From a virus (lineage: Duplodnaviria > Caudoviricetes): a stretch of 45,390 bases of DNA. Made by a program: the position numbers and the translations under genes. Every line of letters begins with the position of its first letter. Position 1 is the first letter of the stretch. Positions 1-45,390 of this stretch are shown here, piece after piece. The stretch lies in the IMG/VR virus record IMGVR_UViG_3300042363_000712, positions 1-45,390 of that record; one strand, given 5' to 3'. The notes under the pieces were generated by a model. It was not told where the DNA came from. It was given only the letters and a program-made list of their open reading frames with translations, and searched no databases.

Positions 1-27
1 GAGGGACCATCCCTCCACCCGCAGGCA
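1..27. repeat. Terminal direct repeat from circular assembly overlap (copy at 45364-45390)
   Basis: gagggaccatccctccacccgcaggca is identical at both ends, which suggests a complete circular or circularly permuted assembly. Confidence 0.9.
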
Positions 28-42
28 CTAGTCCCATTCTGA

Positions 43-468
43 TTAGAACGGAACATCTTCCCCAACCAAGGAAGAAGACATGGCATCCTGAGCAATCTGT
101 TCGGCAGCAGCCACAACAGAAGACTGCTCCGTATTGAACAACATGTTGTGCCCAATAGCAGACGCCGTCAACTCAGCAGTCGTACCACTACGACCAGACG
201 CATCAGTCCATTGACGGATAATGACACTACCCGCCACAACCACAGGCTGACGCATCTTGACACCTTGCATCACATTCGTAGCCAACTGGCCATACGCAGA
301 CACTGTGTACCAAGACGTATCAAAAGTTTCCCATTCATTAGTTGCGGGATTTTCACGCCGATGATTCACAGCAACACGAAACGATGCAACAGGAATACCA
401 GCTTTAGTTACACCCTCACGTGGGTCTGAACCAACCCAACCTTCTATAGCAATATTTACAGTCATCAT
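43..468 (-). CDS. ssb: Single-stranded DNA-binding protein (actinobacterial type)
   Basis: OB-fold motifs (G..GSDP, VASFRVAVNHRR, TSWYTVSAYGQLA, QPVVVAG, ELTASAIGH), acidic DVPF tail, AGGAG RBS. Confidence 0.9.
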   Translation of the reverse strand: MMTVNIAIEGWVGSDPREGVTKAGIPVASFRVAVNHRRENPATNEWETFDTSWYTVSAYGQLATNVMQGVKMRQPVVVAGSVIIRQWTDASGRSGTTAELTASAIGHNMLFNTEQSSVVAAAEQIAQDAMSSSLVGEDVPF

Positions 469-493
469 ATTCTCCTAACTTATTTAGTGAGAG

Positions 494-530
494 GAAAAAC
501 GCCCCTCGCTTGTCGGGGGGGCGTTTTTTC
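494..530. terminator. Rho-independent terminator-like hairpin, bidirectional
   Basis: gaaaaacgcccctcg...cggggggcgttttttc: GC stem flanked by A and T tracts. Confidence 0.65.
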
Positions 531-537
531 TGAAGTC

Positions 538-984
538 TTACTTATTTAACAATTGTTGAATTCTGTATCTATATTTGTTATGCACACTTTCGTTAACCAG
601 GGTCCGACAATCCCAACAAAACAGCCACGGCAAAAATCCATCAGCGGTACGCACAACAAACATTGCGCGCAAGCCATGCCTGTTTTTACGCACATACTGA
701 TTACATAAAGCACAAACACCTTGTTGTTTATTTTCCATTTCATCAGTCGATGCCATAGATGCTACCTCAGCCTCAACCTGCATATTGAAATCAACAGGTA
801 CACATTCTTTCTTGTACCTTTGTTGATGCGCAACACTACAACGGAAACGTTTTACTGTTTCACCAGTCTTGTTGATTTGCTTATATGTGTACACATCAAC
901 AGTTCGGTCACAGGCTGCACAGTAGCCTTGATACGAATTATTTACGGTTATACATATCGTACTTTTGTCAATTTTGTGTTTCAT
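538..984 (-). CDS. Endonuclease VII-like Zn-finger protein, catalytic motif apparently degenerate
   Basis: QQGVCALC...LFCWDC spacing resembles endonuclease VII; N-terminal CAAC...C..H; GAAAGG RBS. Confidence 0.55.
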   Translation of the reverse strand: MKHKIDKSTICITVNNSYQGYCAACDRTVDVYTYKQINKTGETVKRFRCSVAHQQRYKKECVPVDFNMQVEAEVASMASTDEMENKQQGVCALCNQYVRKNRHGLRAMFVVRTADGFLPWLFCWDCRTLVNESVHNKYRYRIQQLLNK

Positions 985-1012
985 AATACCCTTTCATTTT
1001 ATCCTAATAAAC

Positions 1013-1217
1013 CTATACTATTATACTAGTTATGAGCTTACATCCCTGCAACCACCAGAATAGTATAATAGTATATAAGTATAAGTATAAAATGGACACT
1101 TTTTACAGTCCATCATAATTCTGTAAATAGGTTATACAAACGACTATATTTGTAATATAAAACGACCTAAAAAACAGCACCCAATTATCCTTATACATCT
1201 ATACTAATTATACTAGT
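1013..1217. promoter_or_regulatory. AT-rich intergenic region with three TAGTATAAT(T)AGTATA motifs (promoter, operator or unwinding element)
   Basis: Perfect 15-bp inverted pair at 1014-1028 and 1061-1075, near-copy at 1199-1217, each containing TATAAT; TATAAG tandem at ~1075-1090. Confidence 0.55.
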
Positions 1218-1311
1218 CACAAAAACCCACCAAGATAGCTCCACCCAGCCCCCACGTAAGGCGCCAAAAAAAGTGGGGGCAGAGCCGAAAACGACCCCAC
1301 CCCCACACGTC

Positions 1312-1866
1312 CTAAAACAGGACAGGAGCAGTACGAGGAATAAACCTACGTACCAAACGACGAGACTCAGAAACGCCAAACTTCTCAGCCTGCGCAACAA
1401 CATAACGAACCCAACGGTCCAAACCAGACTCAACAGCAATCACAGCAGACGGAACCGTAGAATCCATACCCCAATGCTCAGACTCAGCATCAAAGATACT
1501 CTGCGCCCACCGAAAATTAGCAGCAACAACCCGCTTCTCATCAGTAAACACGTTATCCTCCCACCCAATCTCGACATGCAATGGCATCATCAGTGCCTTA
1601 GCGTAAACAGAGTTACTTTTCTGCTCACGCGCAACACGCAACATGTGACCTGCCATGCGAGACACGCCACGCACCGTACGGCCAACACCATCACGACCTT
1701 TCTCAGAAGGAAGAACAAACTGCACACGAACATTCTCAGGACCGCCATGCGCAGCAACAGTTTCCGCGAAAAAACCCAACATGGTTTTCCGCACAAACTC
1801 ATAAGCCTCATCATCAATAACACGAGACCCAACAACAACACAACGAACAATAGGAACACTAGACAT
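1312..1866 (-). CDS. Hypothetical protein
   Basis: ATG at 1866 overlaps the end of the upstream gene; codon bias matches neighbours; the ORF-track start at 1986 is probably too long. Confidence 0.6.
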   Translation of the reverse strand: MSSVPIVRCVVVGSRVIDDEAYEFVRKTMLGFFAETVAAHGGPENVRVQFVLPSEKGRDGVGRTVRGVSRMAGHMLRVAREQKSNSVYAKALMMPLHVEIGWEDNVFTDEKRVVAANFRWAQSIFDAESEHWGMDSTVPSAVIAVESGLDRWVRYVVAQAEKFGVSESRRLVRRFIPRTAPVLF

Positions 1867-2326
1867 CAGAATCACTCCAATCAACAACCTCAACAGTCTT
1901 TTCATAAACCTTCTGGAGTTCCGCATAGTTATCTTCAACGAAATCACTACCCGAAACTTGAGTAGAAGCAAACAACTCCCACCCACGACGAGTCACGCGC
2001 TCTTCAGCAGACTCGCTAGCACCCGCCATGTCTTCCAACGACAGGACAAAATCTTCATCATTGAGCTTCTGCAAACGCGACATAACATCATCACGCGTAC
2101 ACTCAAAACAGACAACCTCATCAAACTTAAAACATGCAGAAGCAGTCTTGAAATGAAGAATGAAATCAGTAATCAAATTAGGTGTAACAGAGGTCGCATA
2201 AAAAGGCCTCTGATACGCCGGAACAAACTGACTCAACACAACTTCCTCTTGAGTCGCAATAGCCTGAGACACCACAAACCGAAGATGCTCACAATGCATA
2301 CACACATTATTAATAAAGCGGGACAT
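1859..2326 (-). CDS. Hypothetical protein with two CxxC motifs
   Basis: AGGAG RBS; CMHC and CFEC motifs. Confidence 0.7.
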   Translation of the reverse strand: MSRFINNVCMHCEHLRFVVSQAIATQEEVVLSQFVPAYQRPFYATSVTPNLITDFILHFKTASACFKFDEVVCFECTRDDVMSRLQKLNDEDFVLSLEDMAGASESAEERVTRRGWELFASTQVSGSDFVEDNYAELQKVYEKTVEVVDWSDSDV

Positions 2327-2360
2327 AACAACTCCTAACTAAATTATTAAATGCGACGAC

Positions 2361-2390
2361 GGATTGCCGACACACCTGTTCGGGCAATCC
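2361..2390. other. Hairpin ggattgccga...tcgggcaatcc
   Basis: Imperfect inverted repeat upstream of the 2326 gene. Confidence 0.5.
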
Positions 2391-2449
2391 GGCGTGCACC
2401 TGAGCAAAACACCTAACCCGACCATATATATACAGTTTTTAAAAAGTCA

Positions 2450-2634
2450 TCACAAAAAAAGACAAAATGAGAAAAAAAGTACCATAAGAGCGAAGACACG
2501 ACCCGCCAAGGGCGGTCGTCGGTGGTGGTGGCGACGCGGTTTGGTGGCCGTGCTGGCTTTCCTGCTGCGGGAGGGAAGCGGGTGAACGGGGCGCAGCCCT
2601 GTTTTTACGGTGTTTGTTTTTTATGTTTTTGTGA
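2450..2634. other. Candidate replication origin at the strand-skew switch point
   Basis: Hairpin acgacccgcc-aag-ggcggtcgt (2498-2519) with A-tracts on the left and T-tracts on the right; C+A to G+T skew flips here. Confidence 0.5.
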
Positions 2635-2642
2635 GGCACCAT

Positions 2643-2677
2643 AAAAATAGGGGGGCAGCCGAGGCCACCCCCCTATT
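2643..2677 (-). terminator. Rho-independent terminator ending the small-gene array
   Basis: Minus strand GGGGGGTGGC-CTCG-GCTGCCCCCC followed by TATTTTT, just after the stop at 2693. Confidence 0.75.
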
Positions 2678-2692
2678 CGGGTTTGTGTTAAG

Positions 2693-2911
2693 TTATGCGT
2701 TTTCGTATCGTCGGTCTTTGACGATGTGGAAGGTTTCGTTGTTGTCCCAGTAGCCGGTGAATTGTCCGGGTTCTGGGGTGAGGAACTCTGCATGTTTTTG
2801 TGCGAAGAGTTCTGTGGGCCATTCGTATGTTTGGATGGGCCCTGCGGAGTAGTTGAAGATTCCGCTTCGGTTTTGGACTGGCGATTCGTTGTATGGCCAG
2901 TTGTTGTTCAT
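2693..2911 (-). CDS. Small hypothetical protein (72 aa)
   Basis: AAGAAAGG RBS, preceded by a conserved hairpin and followed by a terminator. Confidence 0.75.
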   Translation of the reverse strand: MNNNWPYNESPVQNRSGIFNYSAGPIQTYEWPTELFAQKHAEFLTPEPGQFTGYWDNNETFHIVKDRRYENA

Positions 2912-2934
2912 GATGGTACCTTTCTTGTTAGTTG

Positions 2935-2976
2935 GGGGTGTGTTCCCCGCTTCGTAGAACGGGGGAACACACCTCC
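2935..2976. repeat. Hairpin repeat unit 1 (21-nt identity with 3361-3381)
   Basis: ggggtgtgttccccgcttcgt...ggggaacacac. Confidence 0.85.
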
Positions 2977-2982
2977 TGGTGA

Positions 2983-3339
2983 TTAGTGTGTGATACGTAT
3001 CACACGGTTGGGGATGTTAAGTTTTTTGCAAATGTCTATCATGTGTTTGCTACCCGGGGATTCGCCGTCCCAGAAGATGATGGCGTGGGTGCATTCTTTA
3101 GCCATTTCGGTGTTGCGCAGGTACCCCGCTTTTTTGCCGTGGGTTGCCCAGTCGGCAGGCATTTTGATAACGTTGTATCCGCGTGTTTCGGCGTAGCGTT
3201 CACCGAGTTGGTCTGCGCCTTTAGCTCCGCCTGAGATGATTGTGACGTCTTCTGTGGTGTTAGCTAGGACGTTGTTGAGTTTGGTTTCCATCCAACTGTA
3301 GTCGGTGAGTGTGCGACTTCCAGCAATGATGAGTTTCAT
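2983..3339 (-). CDS. SLOG-superfamily protein (DUF2493 / YspA-related)
   Basis: KLIIAGSR, IISGGAKGADQLGERYA, ADW..HGKKAGYLRN.EMA, FWDGESPGSKHMI; start corrected to the ATG after the AAGAAAGG RBS. Confidence 0.9.
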   Translation of the reverse strand: MKLIIAGSRTLTDYSWMETKLNNVLANTTEDVTIISGGAKGADQLGERYAETRGYNVIKMPADWATHGKKAGYLRNTEMAKECTHAIIFWDGESPGSKHMIDICKKLNIPNRVIRITH

Positions 3340-3360
3340 AACGTTTCCTTTCTTTAGGTT

Positions 3361-3402
3361 GGGGTGTGTTCCCCGCTTCGTTTTAAGGGGGAACACACAC
3401 CC
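3361..3402. repeat. Hairpin repeat unit 2
   Basis: ggggtgtgttccccgcttcgt...ggggaacacac, directly upstream of the SLOG RBS on the minus strand. Confidence 0.85.
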
Positions 3403-3406
3403 ACAG

Positions 3407-3628
3407 TTACTTGTTGTTGGGTACTACGCATCCTGGGTCGTTGGGGTTCATATCTAGGCAGGGATACCCGCCGAAGATACATGGCATACACCTGTTGCCC
3501 GGGTCGCCGTCGCATTCGCAAGGCACTTGGAAGCTAGCGTCACCTGCACAGATGACGCAGTCAGCCCAGGGTCCGAACGGTTCGTGTTCGGCCCATGGTG
3601 CATAAACAGTGTTCTCGAATCTGGACAT
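3407..3628 (-). CDS. Small Cys-rich protein (73 aa)
   Basis: GAGAGGAAAG RBS; CVIC, CEC and CMPC motifs. Confidence 0.7.
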   Translation of the reverse strand: MSRFENTVYAPWAEHEPFGPWADCVICAGDASFQVPCECDGDPGNRCMPCIFGGYPCLDMNPNDPGCVVPNNK

Positions 3629-3648
3629 TACTTTCCTCTCTAGTTGGG

Positions 3649-3674
3649 GTGGGGGTAGCTTTCGCCACCCCCAC
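3649..3674 (-). other. GAAA-tetraloop hairpin upstream of an RBS
   Basis: Minus strand GTGGGGGTGGC-GAAA-GCTACCCCCAC followed by CCCAACTAGAGAGGAAAG. Confidence 0.65.
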
Positions 3675-3682
3675 GTAAACGC

Positions 3683-3835
3683 TTACGGTGCGTCAACCCA
3701 GGTTGGGTAGGGCTCAATAGAGTCCATGAAGTCGCCACTGCATCCATAGCAGTCGCATCCCGCATAGGCCAGTCCCTCCGTCACAGCGAAGTCCTCCTCC
3801 GCTGGGTTGTAGGTACATGTGGTGTTAGCGCTCAT
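3683..3835 (-). CDS. Acidic Cys-containing microprotein (50 aa), absent from the ORF track
   Basis: AAGGAGGTGA RBS then ATG; MSANTTCTYNPAEEDFAVTEGLAYAGCDCYGCSGDFMDSIEPYPTWVDAP*. Confidence 0.75.
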   Translation of the reverse strand: MSANTTCTYNPAEEDFAVTEGLAYAGCDCYGCSGDFMDSIEPYPTWVDAP

Positions 3836-3864
3836 CAGTCACCTCCTTACTACGTCAATCAACG

Positions 3865-3906
3865 AGGGGCAAGCCGCCGCCTCGCGGCAGCGGGCGGCTT
3901 GCCCTT
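3865..3906. other. Strong GC hairpin at the head of the small-gene array
   Basis: aggggcaagccgcc...ggcggcttgccctt. Confidence 0.6.
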
Positions 3907-4058
3907 GAAGCCCGTAACCATGTCGTGTCAGTACGCAACCGAGTCCACCCAAGGGGGTCAACCTCCTTGAAAATTTGGCATCTCAATTTCTGTGTATAAC
4001 CGTTTTTTGTGGTATCTTTAGTCTCATATTGTTTCGCTTATGTGTGGAAGGTGTTTCT

Positions 4059-4256
4059 GTGAGGGCTTTTTGTAAGCAGGATGAGGCGTTGTTGTTGGAG
4101 TTGCAGCATTATGTGACGTTGATGCGGTTGCGGGATTCGGGGCCGCGTTGGGATGTGTCTGCTGGTTTTCCGCGGTGGAGGTTGTTTCATTCTGGCGCTG
4201 GTGTTGTGTTGCGTCGTTTGCGTAAACGGTTTCGGGTGAAAGTTAATTCTGGTTAA
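4059..4256 (+). CDS. Small hypothetical protein
   Basis: GGAAGG RBS before GTG at 4059; stop overlaps the next ATG (TAATG). Confidence 0.5.
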   Translation: MRAFCKQDEALLLELQHYVTLMRLRDSGPRWDVSAGFPRWRLFHSGAGVVLRRLRKRFRVKVNSG

Positions 4257-4924
4257 TGCCTACTATTGAGTCGCATCCTTTGCGGATTGCGCGTATTCGT
4301 GCGGGTTTGTCTGCTGAACGGTTGGGTGGTTTGGCGGGTGTTTCGCGTGGTGCGGTGAATGCTTTGGAGCAGGGGCGTATTAAGCGTCCTCGTGAGGAGT
4401 TGGTTGTGGCGTTGGCTCGAGCTAATGGTGTTGCTCCTGAGTTGTTGTGGGGTTTGTATAATCGTTGGTTGGAGGGCTTTGAGTCGTCGTCTGTTGATGC
4501 GTGGCGTGAGGTGGGGGCGGTGTTGTCCGCTCGGGCTCGGGCGGTGTTGTCGTTGTCTCCTGATGTGGTGTTGCGGTATGGGTCGTTTTCGGCGTGGAGG
4601 CGTGAGATTCATCCGAGTGTGGCGGGTTTTGCGTCGTTGTTGCGTGTTTCGGCTACGTCGTTGCGGAGGTTTGAGCGTGGGGATGTGGGTATGCCGAAGC
4701 CGTTGGTGCGTGCTTTGTTGAATGTGTTGCGGTTGTCTGAGGATTATGTGGGGGCGTTGTTGTCGTTGGAGGGGGCGGACCCTGGTGATGTGGTGCGGGA
4801 GTTTTGGCGTGACCGTAAGCGGGTGCAGCGTCAGCGTGAGCGGTGGCGTGAGTCGGGGGATGTTCGTGGGTTTAGGTCGTTGAAGGACCCTGTGTCGATG
4901 ATTGGTGATGTTGATGTCGTCTGA
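4256..4924 (+). CDS. Transcriptional regulator with two XRE-type HTH domains
   Basis: LRIARIRAGLSAERLGGLAGVSRGAVNALEQG and SVAGFASLLRVSATSLRRFERG. Confidence 0.8.
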   Translation: MPTIESHPLRIARIRAGLSAERLGGLAGVSRGAVNALEQGRIKRPREELVVALARANGVAPELLWGLYNRWLEGFESSSVDAWREVGAVLSARARAVLSLSPDVVLRYGSFSAWRREIHPSVAGFASLLRVSATSLRRFERGDVGMPKPLVRALLNVLRLSEDYVGALLSLEGADPGDVVREFWRDRKRVQRQRERWRESGDVRGFRSLKDPVSMIGDVDVV

Positions 4925-5726
4925 TGTTGCTGATTTGCCTCCGTTTTCGGCGGGCATGTTGGATGTGGTGTTGCCGGGGTCTTCTCCTGTGGGTGTGGGG
5001 GTTGCGGGGGATGTGTTTGTTGCTGCGGTGAATGCTGCGTGGGTGTTGTGGTTGCGGGGTGAGCCTGTGACGGTGGGTGATATTGAGCGTGTTGCTGGTG
5101 CCGCTTTTGTGGGTGTTGATTTGGATTTGTTGCGGGGTGTGGTGGAGTCGGAGAAGTTTCGTGTGGCTTTGGAGTCTCGTGGTGTGGTGTTGGGGCGTGT
5201 TGATTCGGAGGGTTTGTCGGCGGAGATGGTGGCGTGTGTTCGCGCGTTGTCGGACCCTCAACCTGGGTTGACGGTTCGTGAACGTTTGAGGGGGGTTGGT
5301 GTTTCGTGGGAGCAGTATCAGGGTTGGTTGGGGTTTGGTCCGTTTCGTGAGGCTTTGACGAGGGCGTCTGAGCGGGGTTTGCGTGGTGCGGTGGCGTTGG
5401 CTAATTCGCGGTTGTTGGAGGGTGTGGATTCTGGGGATTTGCGTTCGGTGAAGTATTTGCATGAGTTGACGGGGTATTTTACGCCTGGGCGTCAGCAGGT
5501 GTTGGATGTGCAGCAGTTGGTGCGTGATGTGATGACGGTGGTGTTGCGTCGTGTTACTGACCCGGAGTTGTTGTTGGCGTTGGCTGGTGATTTTAGGGTT
5601 TTGCAGGAGCGTATGTTGGTGGGTGGTGATGGTGCTGGTTCGGGTGAGCGGGGCGCTGTTGTTGCTGGGTTTGGGGAGGTTCCTGGTATGATGGATTTGC
5701 CTGTGATTGAAAGTGATGGTGACTGA
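4914..5726 (+). CDS. HTH protein, possible terminase small subunit
   Basis: GVSWEQYQGWL..GPFREAL...GDLRSVKYLHELTG resembles phBC6A51-type HTH/TerS proteins. Confidence 0.45.
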   Translation: MSSDVADLPPFSAGMLDVVLPGSSPVGVGVAGDVFVAAVNAAWVLWLRGEPVTVGDIERVAGAAFVGVDLDLLRGVVESEKFRVALESRGVVLGRVDSEGLSAEMVACVRALSDPQPGLTVRERLRGVGVSWEQYQGWLGFGPFREALTRASERGLRGAVALANSRLLEGVDSGDLRSVKYLHELTGYFTPGRQQVLDVQQLVRDVMTVVLRRVTDPELLLALAGDFRVLQERMLVGGDGAGSGERGAVVAGFGEVPGMMDLPVIESDGD

Positions 5727-6715
5727 TGGCGACTACGCCTACAACTAAGTTGGGTATTCCGTTGCCTGTTGCGGGTTCGGGTGAACCGTTTACGGTTGCT
5801 GCTTACAATTTTGGTATTAATACTTTGGATGGTGCGGCTGGGTTTACTGTTTGCACTTCAGCGACTAGGCCGGGGTCGCCTTGGTTGGGTCAAGCAATTT
5901 TTGAGACGGATACGGAGCTTAGTTTTATTTGGAAGGGTTCTGCGTGGATGCCTGGTGGTGGTGGTGGGAGTATTGAGATTTCTGCTACGGCTCCGGCTGG
6001 TCCTGGTGAGGGTGATTTGTGGTGGGATTCTGATAACGGCAAGCTTTACATTTATTACAACGATGGGACGTCTTCGCAGTGGGTTGATGCTGCGGGTCCT
6101 TCGGTGGCGGTTCAGTCGACAGCGCCCACAGGGTATGAGGGCCAGTTGTGGTTGGATGACACTGACGGGTCTATGTACGTGTATTACACTGACCCTGGTG
6201 GGGGGTCTTCGTCTTGGATTGGCGCGGTGTCGCGGTCTGGTGGGATTCTTCAGGTTGTTCAAGCCGTCAAGACGGACACTTTTAGCACTACTTCTACATC
6301 TTTTACGGCGGTAACTGGCGCTTCAGTATCAATTACGCCAAGGTCTACAAGCAGCAAAATTCTTATTTTAGGAACTACATTTATTGGTTTTTCAGGCTCC
6401 ACTAACTCTCGTAGCGCTTTTGTCAGAGTTACTGGTGGTAACTCGGTCAGCTATGTTGGTGACGCGGCGGGTAGCCGTATTAGGGCTTTTGGTACTACGG
6501 GTGCCAGAGCCACTGATTACGGTATAAACACTGTCAATGGTTTTGCGTCTCTTTCTTACGTTGACTCACCTTCAACAACTAGCACGGTAACTTATCAGCT
6601 AGAGATGATGGTTACGGGTGACACTGGATATATTGGCAGGACAGGAACCGACACCGACGCAACTGGCTTTGGCCGTTTTCCAACTACTTTAATTGTTATG
6701 GAGGTGGCAGGCTAA
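5726..6715 (+). CDS. Tail fibre / receptor-binding protein
   Basis: N-terminal TTKLGIPLP anchor, two G(D/Q)LW.D...G..Y.YY.D repeats, GGILQVVQ...STTST...PRSTSSKIL C-terminal domain. Confidence 0.75.
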   Translation: MATTPTTKLGIPLPVAGSGEPFTVAAYNFGINTLDGAAGFTVCTSATRPGSPWLGQAIFETDTELSFIWKGSAWMPGGGGGSIEISATAPAGPGEGDLWWDSDNGKLYIYYNDGTSSQWVDAAGPSVAVQSTAPTGYEGQLWLDDTDGSMYVYYTDPGGGSSSWIGAVSRSGGILQVVQAVKTDTFSTTSTSFTAVTGASVSITPRSTSSKILILGTTFIGFSGSTNSRSAFVRVTGGNSVSYVGDAAGSRIRAFGTTGARATDYGINTVNGFASLSYVDSPSTTSTVTYQLEMMVTGDTGYIGRTGTDTDATGFGRFPTTLIVMEVAG

Positions 6716-7095
6716 TGGATATTTCTTTGATTCTTTCCCGTAAATACCCCGGTACTCAGTGGACTCTAAACGGCGACTCTTACGCCGGTCTAACTTGGTT
6801 GTCTGAGGGTGACGCACCTTCTGAGGCTGAACTACAGGCTGAGTGGGCTCAGGTTGAATACGAGGTTGCGTTTGAGGCTGTTCAGAAGCAACGGCAGGCC
6901 GCATACCAGGCCGAGTCTGACCCTGTGTTTTTTGATTACCAGCGTGGTGAGGCTTCTGAGGCTGAGTGGTTGGCGGCTGTTGAGGCTGTGAAGGTTTCTA
7001 ACCCTTACCCTGTTGTGGTTGTCGAACCTGATTTGTCTTTACGGCCAGCCGACCCTGTTGCAAACCCGTTACCTGAAGAGAAGGCGGCTAAATAA
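6715..7095 (+). CDS. Tail-fibre-associated (assembly chaperone-like) protein
   Basis: YPGTQWTLNGDSY.GLTW and RQAAYQAESDPVFF..QRGE motifs; translationally coupled to the fibre gene. Confidence 0.65.
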   Translation: MDISLILSRKYPGTQWTLNGDSYAGLTWLSEGDAPSEAELQAEWAQVEYEVAFEAVQKQRQAAYQAESDPVFFDYQRGEASEAEWLAAVEAVKVSNPYPVVVVEPDLSLRPADPVANPLPEEKAAK

Positions 7096-36497: not shown

Positions 36498-36510
36498 AGC
36501 CGTTAAGGAT

Positions 36511-37128: not shown

Positions 37129-37147
37129 TATTCATTTCTCCATTTCA

Positions 37148-37879
37148 TCATCTCAATAAAAGGTCATGGACAGGATTGTCCACGCCCGCGTACTGTTGAC
37201 AAGACAAACACCCAGGTAAAGGTGCATGCCTCTTCAACAGAACATCCCAACCAAGCTCTTCGGCCTGGTCAATATAATTTTCTAACTTTGCCAACGCGGT
37301 AATTGCTATCTGTTGCGAATACGGAAACACAATAGGCGCAGCGTCACGTAACAAATTATTTTTATTAGCAGGCAAAAACATTATTGCCACATCAGAAATC
37401 TTGTAACCTAACTTTTCCCAGCCCAACGCATACAAATGACCCTGGATTACATACTGGTTTTTAATCTCACCCTTATGGGCACGCTCCAACGTATCATCCC
37501 CAACAATTTTCCAATCAACAACTAAACCATGGCCATCGTTAGGGAAAAAAGCGTCACAGGAGCCACGCAAACGCAAATCCTTATACTCATGCACATCTAA
37601 CGAACGCTCAATAATAACCTCATCGCCAGAAGCCCAGCGAGACGAAAATTCTTCCGCTAAACCAGCATGAACATAAGTACCCAACTGCGCACGCCACGAA
37701 CCACCTTGTTGTTCTTTAGGCATCTTGGCTAACTTACGCAACACACAACGTTGACATGCCATCCCAACTTCAGACACACCAATTTCTACCTGACGGCCTC
37801 TATCCGTGATGCTAAACGAATCAATGACCTCTAACAAATTATCTGGTGTAACAATTTTAGGTAATCCTTCGACTGCCAT
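37148..37879 (-). CDS. Cas4-like PD-(D/E)XK exonuclease
   Basis: GVSEVG..CQRC, LGTYVH, GSCD...VVDWK, Q..LY and CLSC. Confidence 0.8.
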   Translation of the reverse strand: MAVEGLPKIVTPDNLLEVIDSFSITDRGRQVEIGVSEVGMACQRCVLRKLAKMPKEQQGGSWRAQLGTYVHAGLAEEFSSRWASGDEVIIERSLDVHEYKDLRLRGSCDAFFPNDGHGLVVDWKIVGDDTLERAHKGEIKNQYVIQGHLYALGWEKLGYKISDVAIMFLPANKNNLLRDAAPIVFPYSQQIAITALAKLENYIDQAEELGWDVLLKRHAPLPGCLSCQQYAGVDNPVHDLLLR

Positions 37880-39396: not shown

Positions 39397-39401
39397 AACC
39401 C

Positions 39402-39851
39402 TTACATCAAACGCAACGGGCGCGACGGAACACTCTGATACAAATCAGGGTAATCCGACGGCGGATACAACTCCTTAACAGCAGAAGTACGAATCCGCAC
39501 AGAACTCTCATGCTTTAACGAAATAACAGGCTCGTCACCCTCCGCCAAAGCAAGATATTGAGAATCCCCAACCATAGTTTCCAACACCGACTTGATTGCC
39601 GAATCACGTTCACCCAACAAACGTTTACTTGCACGAATTTCATACAACTCAGCAACCAACATTGCAGTCAACTCAGCATCTGACGCCACAACAACATCAG
39701 ACGGGTCAACAGGTTCAGGCGAAGAAACAAGCGGACGAGCCCGCTTAACTTCCTGCTTACCATGTGGCGTATTAACATACACCGGTTCCAAATCCAACTG
39801 CTCAGCATGCTGCTTAGCAGCATCCAACATTGCCCTAAATGAATCACTCAT
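39402..39851 (-). CDS. Hypothetical protein
   Basis: GGAGGG RBS before ATG at 39851, overlapping the upstream stop. Confidence 0.7.
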   Translation of the reverse strand: MSDSFRAMLDAAKQHAEQLDLEPVYVNTPHGKQEVKRARPLVSSPEPVDPSDVVVASDAELTAMLVAELYEIRASKRLLGERDSAIKSVLETMVGDSQYLALAEGDEPVISLKHESSVRIRTSAVKELYPPSDYPDLYQSVPSRPLRLM

Positions 39852-40413
39852 TACTACCCTCCGATTTATAACCATTAACCTGACCAAAAGTATCAAACTC
39901 AGCAAGCAACTCCTCAACAAGTTGACGAGTCTGCTCAGCCTTACTATCAACATCATAAGACTCCAACAAAGCCGGGTTCTTATCAACAACAGCATCAGTT
40001 AAACTGACACGTTGCAACTTATCTTTACGTTTTTTATCCGCTTTTTGTTTCTTACGCAAAGACTTATCCCGTTGCGCTTGCAACCTAGTCTGAAACTCTT
40101 CCAACTCCTCATTATCAGAAATCTCAAAAGAAACAGTTCTAGTGACCGCACCACCTTCTGCGACAGAAGAAGAACGTTCCTCAACACCACGCGTAGCAGC
40201 AGCATCAATAAACGCCAACACATCCGAATATTTATACCGAATCATGCCCCTAGTCTGACCAGGCGCAACAAACCGTTGAAACGGCAAATTAACCTCAGAC
40301 GACTGACGCCACAAATACAAAGTATTCGCATTAACATTAAGAATCTGCGACACTTCACCGGACGTCAACAGTTTGTCTTTACCAGACAACACATCATCAA
40401 CAAAATCATTCAT
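39844..40413 (-). CDS. MerR/Xis-type HTH DNA-binding protein
   Basis: LLTSGEVSQILNVNANTLYLWR...IRYKYSDV.AFI. Confidence 0.8.
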   Translation of the reverse strand: MNDFVDDVLSGKDKLLTSGEVSQILNVNANTLYLWRQSSEVNLPFQRFVAPGQTRGMIRYKYSDVLAFIDAAATRGVEERSSSVAEGGAVTRTVSFEISDNEELEEFQTRLQAQRDKSLRKKQKADKKRKDKLQRVSLTDAVVDKNPALLESYDVDSKAEQTRQLVEELLAEFDTFGQVNGYKSEGSNE

Positions 40414-40419
40414 CAGAAC

Positions 40420-40794
40420 CTACCCATCCTCAGCAGGAACCTCAACATGAGACTCCAACCAATCACGAATGACCTTTTCATCTTTAGACTCAATAAGTTT
40501 TAACAACTCATCAACAAAAGTCAACGTTGTTCTAACACTGTCAAAGAAATGCTTAGCCGCAAACGGTGCCAGCCCTTCCAACAGTTGCTCATGAAAAATG
40601 TGGCTTTTAGTATCAAAAACCACAGTCGTAGCAGAACGCAACAACATTTCAACAACATTACCTACACCGCCATACAACGAATAAATTGCGTCAACAGCGT
40701 TAACATCACCCTCTGTTTCCATTTGGATATTAGAAGGCGGACCATTACTATCATTATCTTTATGAATAGTAAGAACAATTTTTCTATCCGACAT
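40420..40794 (-). CDS. Hypothetical protein
   Basis: Tight operon packing; GAAAGG RBS. Confidence 0.7.
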   Translation of the reverse strand: MSDRKIVLTIHKDNDSNGPPSNIQMETEGDVNAVDAIYSLYGGVGNVVEMLLRSATTVVFDTKSHIFHEQLLEGLAPFAAKHFFDSVRTTLTFVDELLKLIESKDEKVIRDWLESHVEVPAEDG

Positions 40795-40796
40795 GA

Positions 40797-41588
40797 CTAA
40801 CCCTTTCCATTTGATTTAGTACCCCACCAACCAGCAACAGCAGCACGAGGAGTGTCGCTCTCATTGGGCATAGGCGGGATATTATAATTAGCGGAACCCG
40901 ACGCCCCACTAAAACCACTAGCACTTGCAGGTGCACCGCTAGCATCCCCAGGCATATCAGGAATACGTGTGCTGCCCCGAACAGTAGGCTCCCTGTCTAG
41001 AAAAAACAGGCCCTTAGCATCTTCATTACCCGCATGCATTTTAATACGCTTAAGATGCTCAGCATTGGTCGTATTGATGCAACCGACAGTTTTGATACCT
41101 AACGTATGAAAAGTAGCATTAATGTCATAATACTCTTCAACCATAAACGTCAACTGATTAGTACCCCGCAGCGTTCGCAGGTTGTCCCACCACTGGTCAC
41201 TAGTTGAGCTATTCCAATGCTCCAACAACTGACTACGATGTTGAGGTTCCCAATAGAACACCTCGAAGATTCCATCTAACGTAACATCCTCATACGCATT
41301 ACGCTTAGTAAGGAACGTCTCTGAATAGTGCCGATTGCCACTATCAGCCCAAACAACCTCTACAGTGTTATCTTCCGCTGACGTTGTTACCGTAGCAATA
41401 AACGGCCCGATGTCGTAAAAAACAAGTTTCTTATCATCATCGCTTTGATGAGAAGACAAACGTATTCGATACCAATGCTTACCTGTCTCGAACCCATTAA
41501 CTTTAAGCGTAAAAGCTTCAGTACGAAGGCCAGTCAACAAGTCAAATGTATTTCTAGCTACAGCGCTACTAGCAATAGTTCTATCCAC
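40797..41588 (-). CDS. Hypothetical protein
   Basis: 263-aa ORF; GAAAGG RBS. Confidence 0.7.
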   Translation of the reverse strand: MDRTIASSAVARNTFDLLTGLRTEAFTLKVNGFETGKHWYRIRLSSHQSDDDKKLVFYDIGPFIATVTTSAEDNTVEVVWADSGNRHYSETFLTKRNAYEDVTLDGIFEVFYWEPQHRSQLLEHWNSSTSDQWWDNLRTLRGTNQLTFMVEEYYDINATFHTLGIKTVGCINTTNAEHLKRIKMHAGNEDAKGLFFLDREPTVRGSTRIPDMPGDASGAPASASGFSGASGSANYNIPPMPNESDTPRAAVAGWWGTKSNGKG

Positions 41589-41659
41589 AACACATCACAC
41601 CCTTTCTAAATAAAGAGCGCCCCACGGTGAAGTCACTTAAAACCCGTGGGGCGCTCAGC

Positions 41660-42517
41660 CTAAACACCAAAATCATCAGGATTAATATCAGCAAACGCTT
41701 CTTGAAGATTAATGGCAGCATCATTACGTGCCTCCTCCAACAACCTGAAACACAAATCAGGTTTGGGAGACACAACCGAAGGACGCACATGCAAACCAGA
41801 CATACGCTCATCAACGGTTTCCATACCCTGCTCAGCAGCACCTTCATTAGCTTTAGCGAAGTCCATAATTGTTGACGCAATAAACTCTTTACCAGCTTCC
41901 GTCATACAACTACTGATAAACGGGTCAGCAATACCTTCGCTCAACGCTTCATGCAACGAAAAAGTAATAGGAACAACAGCTTTTTCATTGAAATCCCACA
42001 TCAACAAATGAAGATTAGGAATAGCAGCAATCTTGTTACCATCCGTTCCATCAGACGTATACACACGCTTATACAACACCTTACGATTTTGCGTAAACGT
42101 ATCCTCGGGCAACAACTTCTTGCCACCTTGCTTTGGCGGTTCTGACTCTGTAACTTCTTCGTCAATGAACGCTGTAATCAATTTGTTATAAAACGCTTCA
42201 TACTCCTCAACACTCGTTTTATCATCATTGAACAACTCTTCCAGTAACTTTGTTTGCAGCAAAAGATTTTGCAACGCTTCTTCTGCGGCATTAAGAATAG
42301 GAGAAGCATCATCATCATCCTCGGCTTGGCTACGCCATGTTGCGCCAGCGTTTTCCATAACAGCAATCAACTTTTGAATATCTTCTACACTATTTTTTTG
42401 CAACGCCTCAACTAAATGCTCCTGCAACGTACCCATAATTTGCGAATACAGTTTAGCCACACGTTCCTGCGCCTTAACAATGCGCGCATCTTCTCCGAAA
42501 TTAATATCTTTACTCAT
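41660..42517 (-). CDS. Hypothetical acidic protein
   Basis: 285-aa ORF; AGGAG RBS. Confidence 0.75.
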   Translation of the reverse strand: MSKDINFGEDARIVKAQERVAKLYSQIMGTLQEHLVEALQKNSVEDIQKLIAVMENAGATWRSQAEDDDDASPILNAAEEALQNLLLQTKLLEELFNDDKTSVEEYEAFYNKLITAFIDEEVTESEPPKQGGKKLLPEDTFTQNRKVLYKRVYTSDGTDGNKIAAIPNLHLLMWDFNEKAVVPITFSLHEALSEGIADPFISSCMTEAGKEFIASTIMDFAKANEGAAEQGMETVDERMSGLHVRPSVVSPKPDLCFRLLEEARNDAAINLQEAFADINPDDFGV

Positions 42518-42525
42518 TACAACTC

Positions 42526-43458
42526 CTAATCTAGTTCTAACAGATACACGGTAGAGAAATCAGTGGCTGACGAATCATGGATAACATCAACTAACTTATC
42601 TCGTAGTTTATCGAACTCCTTGTCTACCTCTGTAATGTCAGACGAAGACTGGTGCCCAATAAAAATAGTTAAACCATCTGCCGGGTCGGCAGTATATGCG
42701 GACTTCATGGCGGTAGTGAAATCGGCCGGATGGCCATACCCACTAGACCACGTTTCTGATTGCTCAGACACAAGAAAACAAACACGACGCAAAAAGTCGC
42801 TATGCCCTACAACAGCAATATCGTTAAGGTCAACCATCTCATCATAATCTTTTAACACAATTTCGACATGAGCAGTATGCGTTGACTCAAACGCTGTAAT
42901 ACGGCAGCGAACATTCTGATTTTCTAACCAATCCACTAACCGTAACAACCTTTTTTGCTTAGCAATAATTGCCTCGCTCTGAACGGTGGCACTAGCCGAC
43001 ACGTTCATAATAAGATTGACTGTTAAGTTAGACGGGTTGCCGTTATGAGCTACACCAAAACATTCTGGTGCACCCTCTAGAAACTTACCAATATCTAAAT
43101 AATCACCTGTAACATCAAACGTTACATCTTTGCCAATAGCTTCTTCTGCCGTGAGCATAAGGTTATCTTCTTTAAAAGCACGCACACTACGAGGATTATT
43201 TTTGAAAACCTCCAACGTTTCAAGCAGCGAACCAAACTGTTGAAACCCGTCACGACCAGAATCGTCAGACGATTTAGCTTGCAGCGGCCGCCAATTAAGT
43301 TGCGAGATGGCAGTCCACAACGCTTTGAGAGAACCAAAGTAACCGACAAGCGTATTGCGTTTAACATATTTTAATACTCGATGGTCAGCAATCTGTTTAC
43401 CAACAAAATAGTTGATACCACGACGCACATTTTCTAACTCATTAACTTTAATAATCAC
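42526..43458 (-). CDS. VWA-like partner of the AAA ATPase
   Basis: DVTGDYLDIGKFLEGAPEC, NVSASA and H.DFLRR; start moved to GTG at 43458 after GAAAGG. Confidence 0.6.
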   Translation of the reverse strand: MIIKVNELENVRRGINYFVGKQIADHRVLKYVKRNTLVGYFGSLKALWTAISQLNWRPLQAKSSDDSGRDGFQQFGSLLETLEVFKNNPRSVRAFKEDNLMLTAEEAIGKDVTFDVTGDYLDIGKFLEGAPECFGVAHNGNPSNLTVNLIMNVSASATVQSEAIIAKQKRLLRLVDWLENQNVRCRITAFESTHTAHVEIVLKDYDEMVDLNDIAVVGHSDFLRRVCFLVSEQSETWSSGYGHPADFTTAMKSAYTADPADGLTIFIGHQSSSDITEVDKEFDKLRDKLVDVIHDSSATDFSTVYLLELD

Positions 43459-43484
43459 AACAACACCTTTCATATAAATGATGA

Positions 43485-43793
43485 CACCGGCTGGCAGCAT
43501 GCCTGTTCTGACATACTGACCAGCCGGTGCGGCAACAACCAAAACAAACCTAGGCTAGAGGAACTTGCTAACACGTTCCGTCACCCCATTTGTCGTTTAT
43601 TGCATGCATTACAGAAAGCACAAAGGGTTTCTGCAACTTTGCTCACCGAAGCTAGTGGTACATAGCGAGTGTGTTATCCAAGACATAACAAAGGTTTGTT
43701 TCCATCGAACGGCGGCACTATCGAACACATCCCGCACCATAATCGGTTTACAACCTGGGTAGCGCAATTTCTGGACAACAGTGCTTTCTGTTC
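43485..43793 (-). ncRNA. Candidate structured RNA (unassigned)
   Basis: Three long-range complementary pairs plus local hairpins in a 335-nt intergenic gap. Confidence 0.4.
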
Positions 43794-45152
43794 TTATTCA
43801 ATTAAAAATGGGACTTCAGGCAAACTATCTTGATTTTCCCGAAGATACTTATTCATACTTGGACGGAAATCCCAGTCATTATGGAAAAGCTGAAACACTA
43901 AACCATTACGAACTTCATAAAGATTAGTGTCATCATCATTTTTAGTAACCAGATACAACACTAACGATTTAAGTTTAGTGTCCTCATCTGTATGATTAAG
44001 CAACTGGTCAACACTGGTTTTAATGTTGTCATCAAGTTTTTCGAAATCCACACGCAAACCACGCCGCTGCTCTAACGTCAACAACACATTCCATGCAGCT
44101 GGCACACTGTCACAAGCATCATACGTTTCTGCCAACTTGTTCCAATTACTAGCATTACTGTTATCCGTAAGCAACTTGTCAATAATGTCCAAATTGTTGC
44201 GCCAACGAGTATGACACTCAACATGCAAATCACGTTTATGTTCAGCACCAAACTGATGCAATAACGCCATATGCAACACATCATTGAAATCCATACCATG
44301 AGATAGCAACAAAGAGCCCCGCTGTGTAGCTCGAGGCGACACAACAACACGCAACTCTTGGTCGTTAACAAACGAACGAACATAACGCACAATGTCTAGC
44401 CATGCTGCACCATATTTACCTACAGCAAGACTCTGTTCGAGGTTTTCGTCAATATCCCACGACAACACAACAAAACGGTCCAACGTTGCAGCATCCAACT
44501 GATTACGACCAACATATTGGCGGGAAGCACCCAAACCAAACGTGTTAGCAGACGCAACCATGCGGAACTTGTCATGTCTACGAATCATTCCATCTGGGAA
44601 CGACATGTAATTGTTAGCCAAAGCAGCATTGAGCTGGATAAGAACATTACTGTTACCAGCATCAATTTCGTCTAACAAAAACAACCCACCATGCTCATAC
44701 GCGTTACGAAACACGGTACGCACATAGTTTTGCATAGCATCCATGTAGCCAATAATGTCTGACTTAGATGTTTGAGCACCAACACTCATGGCATAAAAGT
44801 CAAGACCCATAGCATTTGCGACTTGCTCTGCTGCATGCGATTTGCCAGTACCAGCAGGACCCACCAACATCACAGGCGTATTAGCATGCACAACTCTAAT
44901 CAAATGCTCAAAGTTTTTATGCTGAATTCCATCCAAGGTTGGGCTAACAAAATCGTCATAAACAATATGAATTGGACGCGACTGATTAACAGCCTCTTCC
45001 AACTTTTTAACTTTTTGTGCAACACGACGGTCAATCTTAGCTGTCACAGATTTTAGAACATCCTCACTAATCTGGTCAAACATAGATAGCACAGCATCCG
45101 CTTTAGTCTTGGTTTGCGTAGTACGCGTTACCTTAACTGTCTCCACTGTCAT
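43794..45152 (-). CDS. AAA+ ATPase (MoxR/CobS-like)
   Basis: GPAGTGKS, LLDEIDAG, ASANTFG and RNQLDAATLDRF. Confidence 0.9.
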   Translation of the reverse strand: MTVETVKVTRTTQTKTKADAVLSMFDQISEDVLKSVTAKIDRRVAQKVKKLEEAVNQSRPIHIVYDDFVSPTLDGIQHKNFEHLIRVVHANTPVMLVGPAGTGKSHAAEQVANAMGLDFYAMSVGAQTSKSDIIGYMDAMQNYVRTVFRNAYEHGGLFLLDEIDAGNSNVLIQLNAALANNYMSFPDGMIRRHDKFRMVASANTFGLGASRQYVGRNQLDAATLDRFVVLSWDIDENLEQSLAVGKYGAAWLDIVRYVRSFVNDQELRVVVSPRATQRGSLLLSHGMDFNDVLHMALLHQFGAEHKRDLHVECHTRWRNNLDIIDKLLTDNSNASNWNKLAETYDACDSVPAAWNVLLTLEQRRGLRVDFEKLDDNIKTSVDQLLNHTDEDTKLKSLVLYLVTKNDDDTNLYEVRNGLVFQLFHNDWDFRPSMNKYLRENQDSLPEVPFLIE

Positions 45153-45327
45153 AATGTGTTTCCCTTCTGTTTATATATTCATATTCACTAGTGTTTACAT
45201 ACCATTCAATAAACTCTGTCAAGCGAGCGTTCTCGTTTTCCAATTCACGAACTAACACAAGAACCCACAAAGATAGCAACAAAGCCACCATGATAAGACC
45301 GAACGTAATCCACAATGCAATAGTCAT
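45133..45327 (-). CDS. Small membrane protein
   Basis: GAAAGG RBS; N-terminal transmembrane segment. Confidence 0.7.
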   Translation of the reverse strand: MTIALWITFGLIMVALLLSLWVLVLVRELENENARLTEFIEWYVNTSEYEYINRRETHYDSGDS

Positions 45328-45350
45328 AATAAGATTCCTTTCACACGTTG

Positions 45351-45388
45351 AAAACCTGCGGGGGAGGGACCATCCCTCCACCCGCAGG
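45351..45388 (-). terminator. Terminator downstream of ssb, spanning the circular junction
   Basis: Minus strand CCTGCGGGTGGAGGGATGGTCCCTCCCCCGCAGG followed by TTTT. Confidence 0.65.
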
Positions 45389-45390
45389 CA

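What the first reader, a model, noticed from the sequence alone, without database searches (positions are those of the whole stretch)
1..45390. Genome-wide graded G+T/C+A skew consistent with bidirectional strand-displacement replication
Seen: the + strand is very C+A-rich from ~1270 to 2500 and increasingly so from ~33 kb to 45 kb. It is very G+T-rich from ~2510 to 13 kb and looks near neutral around 19-31 kb. The bias ignores gene orientation: minus-strand genes at 2693-3339 and 10835-13000 are G+T-rich on +, while minus-strand genes at 1312-2326 are C+A-rich on +. It fades within the single 2718-aa gene. Known: single-stranded DNA accumulates C>T and A>G changes, and the IncQ plasmid RSF1010 uses RepB' primase at two ssi hairpins for bidirectional strand displacement. 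Inference: two displacement forks leaving ~2510 would keep each displaced strand single-stranded longest near the origin and least at the antipode (~25.2 kb), giving this polarity and gradient. The phage encodes a RepB'-like primase-helicase and two SSB-like proteins but no polymerase.
Basis: partly seen in the sequence, partly recalled or inferred. Interest (0 to 1): 0.85.

Follow-up and report, generated by a model that had tools for sequence, protein, structure and literature searches.

The report
End-anchored strand gradient in a phage
In this lake-water bacterial virus each DNA strand is almost pure G and T at freely changing positions near its start and fades steadily to C and A towards its end; the gradient likely starts at the chromosome's repeated ends and likely records long single-stranded exposure during copying, yet most relatives with the same copying enzyme lack it.

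Summary
At four-fold sites the + strand runs from about +0.9 (G+T) right of 2509 to -0.5/-0.85 at 34-41 kb. A linear gradient beats any step by 80-190 AIC units. It ignores gene strand, appears in both transition pairs at two-fold sites, and crosses zero near 26.4 kb after strand correction.

New here: the break is probably the physical left end of a linear genome with a ~1.44-kb direct terminal repeat (2510-3950). Contig depth is raised there in 6 of 8 runs, one motif marks both borders, and the cultured relative Jasmine has its repeat at this position.

The RSF1010 reading is only partly supported. The primase is RepB'/S-2L-like but fused to a D5/SF3 helicase, and may itself be the polymerase. 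Only 6 of 24 syntenic relatives with this primase show the gradient, on scattered branches. True displacement replicons (phi29, PRD1, 3 IncQ plasmids) are flat. A linear gradient also arises from ordinary forks with dispersed termination.

Best reading: replication from the terminal repeats with long-lived displaced strands, visible only in some lineages (0.45). A new variant of the mitochondrial/N-domain type of gradient.

The parts
1..45363 (.). Genome-wide sawtooth keto (G+T vs C+A) gradient; each strand is G+T-rich in its 5'-proximal part when the genome is opened at about 2510
   Evidence: slope +1.27 +- 0.06 logit at four-fold sites; +1.88 G/A and +1.05 T/C at two-fold sites
2503..2517 (+). 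Skew break (2509) inside a short GC-rich quasi-palindrome; likely left physical end / terminase cut (inferred)
   Evidence: a run X4 contig begins at 2534 with doubled depth; hairpin stability not above shuffles
2510..3950 (.). Probable direct terminal repeat, about 1.44 kb, carrying small minus-strand genes including a SLOG protein (2983-3339)
   Evidence: raised contig depth in 6 of 8 runs; two runs have contigs ending at 3948; position matches Jasmine's 1330-bp repeat
3945..3959 (+). Second copy of the border motif, same orientation; likely inner border of the repeat (inferred)
   Evidence: exactly 2 matches in the window (pattern derived post hoc); not found with up to 1 mismatch at equivalent places in 26 loci of relatives
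4256..4924 (+). HTH gene with extreme skew: 168 of 177 synonymous third positions are G or T
   Evidence: orthologues L266 166/166, L290 167/167, L284 157/158; Pfam HTH_31
4917..5726 (+). phrog_33113 HTH-like protein conserved in all Jasmine-like phages tested; positional marker of the left end (terminase small subunit is a guess)
   Evidence: four-fold skew +0.95
10097..10834 (+). Stand-alone DnaQ-like 3'-5' exonuclease; possible proofreading partner (untested)
   Evidence: phrog_403, RNase_H_2
10835..19326 (-). Minus-strand genes whose coding strand is C+A-rich near the break and neutral further on; the internal control against coding-strand bias
   Evidence: 3' part of the giant gene: NNY C 138 of 157, NNR A 94 of 111
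33910..36432 (-). AEP primase(-polymerase) of the RepB'/S-2L group fused to a D5/SF3 helicase and winged-helix domain
   Evidence: phrog_2478, D5_N, DUF5906, TIGR01613; fold Z 17.0 S-2L PrimPol, 13.7 RepB', 25.1 SaPI5 and vaccinia D5; motifs
43..468 (-). Single-stranded DNA-binding protein
   Evidence: PF00436 E 8e-16
36511..37128 (-). phrog_1911 protein beside the primase, also in TM4 and GMA4; SSB function not confirmed
37148..39396 (-). Cas4-like exonuclease and SNF2 helicase of the conserved replication/recombination module
31868..32437 (-). RuvC-like resolvase

Best explanation
The genome carries a graded strand asymmetry in both transition pairs that likely starts at a direct terminal repeat (about 2510-3950) and likely records long single-stranded exposure of each strand's 5'-proximal part during replication that would begin at both repeats. 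Shown: the gradient, its polarity, its break, its independence of gene strand and of neighbouring base, and its recurrence at the same place in some relatives. Inferred: the virion DNA is linear with this repeat; the AEP-D5 primase-helicase starts forks in or beside the repeat (at both ends of the monomer, or at each junction of a circle or concatemer); the second strand is primed late or not at all, so the displaced strand waits for the opposite fork and gains C>T and A>G in proportion to the wait. Inferred and unexplained: the footprint shows only in lineages where slow replication, weak SSB cover or weak host repair let the damage be fixed.
For: Linear shape with zero at 26.4 kb, the antipode of the repeat being 25.9 kb. 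Two-fold sites carry the gradient in G/A and T/C in 5 of 5 strong genomes tested, so it is transition-driven and not an amino-acid effect. Amplitude near the break is near-saturating (166/166, 167/167, 157/158 sites in three orthologues). Against flat lineages, the C>T-type excess is +2.6 logit on + at the left and -1.4 at the right, and the A>G-type excess is +1.6 at the left and about 0 to -1 at the right, the order expected of deamination (PMC3269015, passage). Slopes are 0.83-1.67 in all 16 neighbour classes, so no motif-specific deaminase is indicated. The break lies just upstream of the HTH gene in G014, G016, G028, G029, G034-C146 and L284, mostly with a near-neutral stretch about 1-1.7 kb wide, as expected of a repeat present at both ends. 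Depth inside versus outside 2510-3950: X3 17-24 vs 6-9; X4 25 vs 9-15; X5 9.9 vs 3-7.7; X8 9.5 vs 4-5.9; X6 and X7 21-22 vs 6-18. GMA4 (+0.72) and BetterKatz (+0.27), siphoviruses with this primase, have the break at their record ends. No PolA in 24 of 24 primase-bearing records.
Against: 18 of 24 syntenic relatives with the same primase and module are flat (slopes -0.29 to +0.28). The strong label needs at least 4 changes on a quick primase tree. No gene family separates 6 strong from 16 weak genomes. Association with this primase is not significant: 7 of 25 vs 0 of 7, Fisher p 0.30. Known displacement replicons are flat: phi29 -0.16, PRD1 -0.14, pTC-F14 +0.12, pA114-Q1 -0.21, p14178 -0.37. 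3 of 5 siphoviruses with this primase show no coherent gradient (TM4, TPA4, MalagasyRose). Run X1 shows no depth rise (one 7.2-kb contig at 21.1 against 22.5 next door), X2 is only weakly consistent, and contig depth is not a copy number. In the window the left part of the repeat is not neutral (SLOG: NNY C 25/27, NNR A 18/18 on the coding strand). By my recollection of deamination rates (no call), spontaneous adenine deamination is slow, so saturated A>G needs very long exposure. Exponential decay fits as well as or better than linear in G014, G028 and G029.
Confidence: 0.45

Rival explanations
1. Ordinary coupled leading/lagging forks start at the terminal repeat, but the two forks (or neighbouring origins in a concatemer) fire out of step and meet at dispersed sites. 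Average fork direction then changes linearly, as in skew N-domains.
For: Same polarity and linear shape. PMC4729899 (passages) describes upward skew jumps with linear decline from progressive inversion of fork direction. A primase fused to an SF3 helicase can prime a lagging strand (established knowledge of P4 alpha and poxvirus D5, recalled). True displacement controls are flat.
Against: It needs a leading/lagging asymmetry large enough to leave 166 of 166 sites G/T, beyond what I recall for coupled bacterial forks. It does not by itself explain on/off lineages.
Confidence: 0.22
2. The gradient comes from polymerase errors, not damage. The phage primase-polymerase copies the first part of each strand with G-T wobble errors (G for A, T for C) and is replaced by, or corrected like, a more accurate host enzyme at variable distance.
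For: The best fold match of the AEP domain is S-2L PrimPol (Z 17.0), shown to be a polymerase and the only one found in S-2L (PMC8065100, passages). A mobile-element PrimPol is error-prone with Mn2+ (PMC11724360, passages). Both transitions are affected without context preference. Exponential fits are better than linear in G014, G028 and G029.
Against: The C>T-type excess is at least as large as the A>G-type. Linear fits as well as exponential in the window and G016. Flat relatives carry the same enzyme. No activity data.
Confidence: 0.15
3. One reading: a circular replicon with an internal RSF1010-type origin (two ssi hairpins on opposite strands) at about 2510, unrelated to packaging ends.
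For: RepB'-like fold and motifs. The border motif resembles an IncQ1 oriV hairpin core (11 of 13 bases). The motifs are quasi-palindromic and could be read from either strand. A nascent-strand bubble could also raise depth.
Against: The two motif copies are in direct orientation, 1.44 kb apart, at the borders of the raised-depth zone. They are not conserved in relatives and fold no better than shuffles. No RepA/RepC or iteron array. IncQ plasmids themselves are flat (3 of 3).
Confidence: 0.1
4. Transcription-linked deamination from divergent promoters near the break, with long read-through that fades with distance.
For: The transcription switch lies near the break, and a constant coding-strand term of +0.35 exists.
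Against: Minus-strand genes at 2693-3339 and 10.8-13.3 kb are strongly biased the wrong way for their own transcription. This would need dominant antisense read-through 10 kb into late genes. The break is 1.4-1.7 kb from the strand switch.
Confidence: 0.04
5. End resection before recombination or concatemer formation exposes single strands near the termini.
For: The break is at a probable terminus, and a Cas4-like exonuclease and a resolvase are encoded.
Against: 5'-3' resection leaves 3' tails and predicts the opposite polarity. The gradient spans more than 15 kb on each side.
Confidence: 0.03

Closest known systems
Vertebrate mitochondrial DNA replication gradient
   Same: Graded C>T and A>G excess on the strand left single longest, strongest at third codon positions (PMC3269015, abstract start and passage).
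   Different: Two-sided sawtooth on a 45-kb phage genome, probably anchored at a terminal repeat; single-stranded intermediates not shown; present in only some sister lineages.
IncQ (RSF1010) strand-displacement replicon
   Same: RepB'-type primase fold and motifs; same predicted polarity (mechanism from PMC6925257, passages).
   Different: Fused D5/SF3 helicase instead of RepA; no RepC or iterons; no confirmed ssi pair on opposite strands; 3 of 3 IncQ plasmids tested have no gradient.
Skew N-domains of the human genome
   Same: Upward jump followed by a linear decline of G-C and T-A skew (PMC4729899, passages).
   Different: Scale is 45 kb rather than megabases, and amplitude is near saturation at synonymous sites.
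End-initiated displacement in adenovirus, phi29 and PRD1
   Same: Same geometry (5'-proximal strand displaced from both ends). A graded skew in adenovirus is recalled from Grigoriev 1999, of which I saw only the reference title in PMC3269015.
   Different: No terminal protein or PolB here; direct rather than inverted repeats; phi29 and PRD1 are flat by the same test.
Cyanophage S-2L PrimPol, NrS-1 polymerase, SaPI5 primase-helicase
   Same: AEP plus SF3-type helicase in one chain; no other polymerase detected.
   Different: 15% identity or less; activity untested; their genomes were not examined for skew.
Arthrobacter cluster AV podoviruses (Jasmine), Shocker, DS1
   Same: Capsid, portal, terminase, adaptor, giant protein and phrog_33113 homologues; Jasmine has a 1330-bp direct terminal repeat just upstream of that gene.
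   Different: They use PolA with a different primase/helicase and have no gradient (0 of 7 such genomes).

Membership tests
IncQ/RSF1010 replicon | RepB'-type primase | tested here: met
   Z 13.7, rmsd 3.3, 176 aligned to 3H25; motifs II and III align by eye with RepB' of L263. Pfam and hhalign (probability 1.8) gave no match.
IncQ/RSF1010 replicon | Separate RepA helicase plus RepC and iterons | tested here: not met
   Helicase is a fused D5/SF3 domain; no RepA/RepC hits; no iteron array among the 20 largest repeat families in 900-4300
IncQ/RSF1010 replicon | Two ssi hairpins on opposite strands at the origin | tested here: inconclusive
   Two quasi-palindromic motifs in direct orientation 1.44 kb apart; weak folds; short resemblance to an IncQ1 hairpin
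IncQ/RSF1010 replicon | Leading-strand-only synthesis with ssDNA intermediates | not testable with these tools
   Needs replicating DNA
mtDNA-type single-strand-duration gradient | Graded skew at synonymous sites independent of gene strand | tested here: met
mtDNA-type single-strand-duration gradient | Both C>T and A>G, with C>T saturating first | tested here: inconclusive
   Both present; C>T-type excess at least as large as A>G-type against flat lineages, but baselines come from other lineages
Skew N-domain (dispersed termination) | Upward jump then linear decline of GC and TA skew | tested here: met
Skew N-domain (dispersed termination) | Coupled forks with linearly changing directionality | not testable with these tools
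   Needs Okazaki-fragment sequencing
S-2L/NrS-1-type replicative PrimPol-helicase | AEP domain with acidic motifs I and III fused to an SF3 helicase | tested here: met
   D94, D96 and D179 invariant in 40 sequences; Z 17.0 to 6ZP9, 19.0 to NrS-1 6K9C
S-2L/NrS-1-type replicative PrimPol-helicase | Sole replicative polymerase, with demonstrated activity | not testable with these tools
   No other polymerase among 49 ORFs scanned; activity needs an assay
Jasmine-like (cluster AV) podoviruses | SU10-type capsid, portal, adaptor and terminase set | tested here: met
Jasmine-like (cluster AV) podoviruses | Linear genome with a direct terminal repeat | tested here: inconclusive
   Raised contig depth in 6 of 8 runs, border motif and synteny; no raw reads
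Jasmine-like (cluster AV) podoviruses | PolA plus separate primase/helicase | tested here: not met
   Absent from the window and from 24 of 24 primase-bearing relatives

The most novel reading that the evidence does not exclude
A widespread family of actinobacterial podoviruses replicates a 42-46 kb genome with a single RepB'/S-2L-like primase-polymerase-helicase by strand displacement from both direct terminal repeats, with no terminal protein and no Okazaki cycle: an adenovirus-like geometry in a tailed phage. The resulting mutational gradient is switched on and off between sister lineages by a host or ecological factor, can drive every synonymous site of end-proximal genes to G or T, reshapes their proteins, and marks genome ends from sequence alone.
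Probability: 0.25. Interest if true: 0.85.

Novelty: new variant of a known kind. Interest (0 to 1): 0.62.

Why it matters
The family offers a natural experiment on a long-standing question: what makes replication strand asymmetry, and how large it can get. Syntenic phages with the same replication genes range from flat to near-saturating gradients. If the mechanism is right, it adds an undescribed replication mode for tailed phages with direct terminal repeats and gives a sequence-only marker of genome ends in uncultured phages. It also warns that such gradients can distort protein composition (GT-rich-codon residues 0.29-0.42 of the HTH protein in skewed lineages against 0.24-0.27 in flat ones) and hence phylogenies. 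GMA4 is a cultured phage with this primase and a clear gradient, so the mechanism can be tested at the bench.

Tried and rejected
Coding-strand or amino-acid explanation: rejected (strand-only AIC 8940 vs 8464; gradient within one gene; two-fold sites). Step-like leading/lagging skew: rejected (AIC 8545-8653; a step is worse than the linear fit in 5 of 5 strong genomes).

A 'weak reverse gradient' in flat relatives looked real at four-fold sites, but its G/A and T/C parts have opposite signs and two-fold sites disagree. It is a GC-content trend. Junctions of 'linear' IMG/VR contigs near the HTH gene (G014, G018) were first taken as termini. G018 has a 265-nt end overlap and G014 is a 90% fragment, so they are not counted.

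A gene gained or lost with the gradient: none found among 890 BLAST clusters. Host NucS loss: the one binned genome holding a skewed phage has NucS, and the one holding a flat phage had no match but is of unknown completeness; binning is weak evidence. Motif-specific deaminase: not indicated. Conserved origin or terminus motif across relatives: not found.

A single-sequence fold of the primase domain failed (pLDDT 38) and was not used. hhalign of RepB' to the alignment gave nothing. Only the primase tree finished, as a quick tree; capsid, terminase and portal trees did not run. RSF1010 itself, two other IncQ plasmids and phage BPs were not in the collections; pA114-Q1, p14178, pTC-F14, GMA1 and D29 were used instead. 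GMA1 (-0.24) and D29 (-0.07) show no positive gradient. No raw reads exist among the 24 runs listed, so termini could not be mapped.

Literature searches for a phage gradient of this kind found none; most subscription papers are outside the library.

Full report
WHAT THE WINDOW IS. The window is a complete circular contig with a 27-nt end overlap. It encodes an SU10-type capsid, portal, adaptor and terminase, tail fibres, an M23 endolysin and a 2718-aa protein. The closest cultured capsids are Cellulosimicrobium phage DS1, Arthrobacter cluster AV phages and Microbacterium phage Shocker, at 35-39% identity. Jasmine is a podovirus with a 1330-bp direct terminal repeat (PMC5513430, passages). All 24 runs listed as holding the DNA are lake or freshwater metagenomes. 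An actinobacterial host is inferred.

THE OBSERVATION. Cumulative G+T-A-C is lowest at 2509. At four-fold sites the + strand is +0.92/+0.95 at 4256-5726, about +0.5 to 11.2 kb, near zero from 16 to 27 kb, and -0.46 to -0.85 at 34-41.6 kb. A linear term plus a coding-strand term gives AIC 8464. A step at the antipode gives 8653, the best free step 8545 and strand alone 8940. The trend holds within the giant gene (p 1e-8) and across 30 minus-strand genes (rho -0.72). One gene of 46 was read out of frame; later calls used automatic or corrected frames and gave the same slope (1.26-1.27). With strand corrected, zero lies at 26.4 kb. Two-fold sites show slopes of +1.88 (G/A) and +1.05 (T/C), so transitions drive it. 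The profile is not monotonic at the right end, and 3400-3950 is neutral.

WHERE THE BREAK IS. Four lines point to a genome end. First, contig depth. Inside about 2510-3950 against outside it is 17-24 vs 6-9 in X3, 25 vs 9-15 in X4, 9.9 vs 3-7.7 in X5 and 9.5 vs 4-5.9 in X8, with 21-22 for contigs mostly inside vs 6-18 outside in X6 and X7. X5 and X8 both have contigs ending at 3948, and X4 has one starting at 2534. X2 is weakly consistent and X1 shows nothing. That is 6 of 8 runs laid, out of 24 listed, and the tool warns that contig depth is no copy number. Second, one 14-15 base motif occurs exactly twice, at 2503-2517 and 3945-3959, in direct orientation. The pattern was built from these two sites, but the sites were found independently. 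Third, the phrog_33113 gene starts about 960 nt inside the 3950 border; its homologue in Jasmine (2092-2901, E 2e-15) starts about 760 nt inside that phage's repeat. In Shocker the distance is 3.7 kb, so this synteny is loose. Fourth, in G014, G016, G028, G029 and L284 genes just upstream of the HTH gene are near neutral (-0.15 to +0.19) between flanks of -0.5 to -0.9 and +0.8 to +1.0, as expected for DNA present at both ends. In the window this plateau is only partial. I put the terminal repeat at about 0.75.

THE REPLICATION GENES. The 840-aa protein has an AEP domain and a D5/SF3 helicase with a winged-helix end. A model built on 40 sequences (pLDDT 81) matches SaPI5 primase-helicase and vaccinia D5 (Z 25.1), NrS-1 (19.0), S-2L PrimPol (17.0, rmsd 2.6, 177 aligned) and RepB' (13.7, rmsd 3.3, 176 aligned). 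Motifs II and III resemble those of RepB' from an IncQ1 plasmid. S-2L PrimPol is a polymerase, the only one found in that phage, and is structurally linked to RepB' (PMC8065100, passages). 'RepB'-like' is therefore fair, but 'no polymerase' is unsafe. One SSB is confirmed; the second candidate has no family. A DnaQ-like exonuclease, a Cas4-like nuclease, an SNF2 helicase and RuvC are present. None of 24 primase-bearing records has PolA.

RELATIVES. I analysed 24 complete or largely complete syntenic genomes with this primase: G001, G002, 21 of the 23 further records (G015 and G027 not fetched), and one contig from a binned genome. Six show the sawtooth with the break upstream of the HTH gene: G014 1.56, G016 1.85, G028 0.74, G029 0.71, G033 0.82 and G034-C146 0.95. 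Eighteen lie between -0.29 and +0.28; several are near-duplicates. Fragments from the window's own clade mostly agree (G009 falls from about -0.1 to -0.96; G010 is weaker and uneven). In the HTH orthologue, 166/166, 167/167 and 157/158 synonymous positions are G or T in L266, L290 and L284, while L267, L285 and L294 are milder. Seven genomes of the same virion family without this primase are flat, but 7 of 25 against 0 of 7 is not significant (p 0.30). On a quick primase tree the strong label needs at least 4 changes, and no gene family tracks it. Among five siphoviruses with this primase, GMA4 (+0.72) and BetterKatz (+0.27) are coherent with breaks at the record ends; TM4, TPA4 and MalagasyRose are not (TM4, BetterKatz, TPA4 and MalagasyRose read over 50 kb of 51-56 kb).

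CONTROLS AGAINST THE READING. phi29 (-0.16), PRD1 (-0.14) and the IncQ plasmids pTC-F14 (+0.12), pA114-Q1 (-0.21) and p14178 (-0.37) show no positive gradient. Displacement replication thus does not always leave this mark. A linear decline between skew jumps also arises from changing fork direction with ordinary forks (PMC4729899, passages). A concatemer with an origin at each repeat has that geometry. Shape alone cannot decide.

MECHANISM. Polarity (5'-proximal parts G+T-rich) fits displacement or leading-strand bias and excludes 5'-3' end resection. Antisense bias in minus-strand genes argues against transcription. Near-saturating amplitude, both transitions, a C>T-type excess at least as large as the A>G-type and no neighbour preference favour long exposure of a displaced strand, as in mitochondria (PMC3269015, passage). 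I commit to forks starting at the terminal repeats with late or absent second-strand priming (0.45). Rivals are dispersed termination of coupled forks (0.22), polymerase error with hand-over (0.15), an internal RSF1010-type origin (0.10), transcription (0.04) and resection (0.03). The gradient, break and lineage pattern are shown. The repeat, the initiation site, single-strandedness and the on/off factor are inferred.

NOVELTY. Graded replication skews are known from mitochondria, N-domains and, by recollection, adenovirus. Six library searches found no description in a tailed phage; the library lacks most subscription papers, and no supplements were read. All papers cited were seen as search listings and selected passages only. 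Verdict: real, extreme and lineage-switchable, a new variant of a known kind, with the mechanism not settled. Interest 0.62.

Noticed in passing
window 3354 (runs X2, X3, X4): A second allele with about 308 extra bases at the 3354-3398 repeat, at depth 10-12, close to that of the reference allele; suggests gene-cassette gain or loss between repeated elements in the probable terminal repeat.
   Followed up: no
window 2928-2972 and 3354-3398; 2651-2672 and 3651-3672: Repeated GC-rich hairpin elements lie between the small minus-strand genes of the repeat zone; possibly terminators, processing sites or cassette borders.
   Followed up: no
window about 3960-4010; L266, L274, L284, G014, G016: A conserved element upstream of the HTH gene (TTGAA...TCAA inverted repeat followed by TGTATAACCGTTTT in the close clade); candidate late promoter, operator or packaging signal.
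   Followed up: partly
window 995-1210: AT-rich region with imperfect inverted repeats (995-1028/1061-1094) upstream of the early genes; candidate early promoter or unwinding element.
   Followed up: no
HTH region of L265-L292: Strain-level differences in the first 1.5 kb after the HTH start are mostly G/T (515 of 920 over 8 non-independent pairs), as expected where A and C are purged from synonymous sites.
   Followed up: partly
window 4253-4957 and 4872-5462 (-): Long antisense shadow ORFs rich in H, T, P, Q and R, a by-product of the extreme skew rather than genes.
   Followed up: partly
whole window: GC content also falls from about 0.55 at 4-9 kb to about 0.42 at 40-44 kb, so the two arms are not mirror images; NNR sites in early genes are far less shifted than NNY sites.
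   Followed up: partly
window 42526-45152: MoxR-like AAA ATPase next to a DUF7192 protein, kept in the window's clade (G009, G010, L284).
   Followed up: no
G004: A Jasmine-like genome with neither this primase nor a PolA match; replication module unidentified.
   Followed up: no
L300 (Gordonia phage GMA1): Coherent but weak negative gradient from the left end (four-fold -0.43 in the first twelfth), the reverse of GMA4 on the same host.
   Followed up: no
P0058, P0060, P0061: The same AEP domain occurs fused to AAA_25/DnaB-type helicases instead of D5.
   Followed up: no
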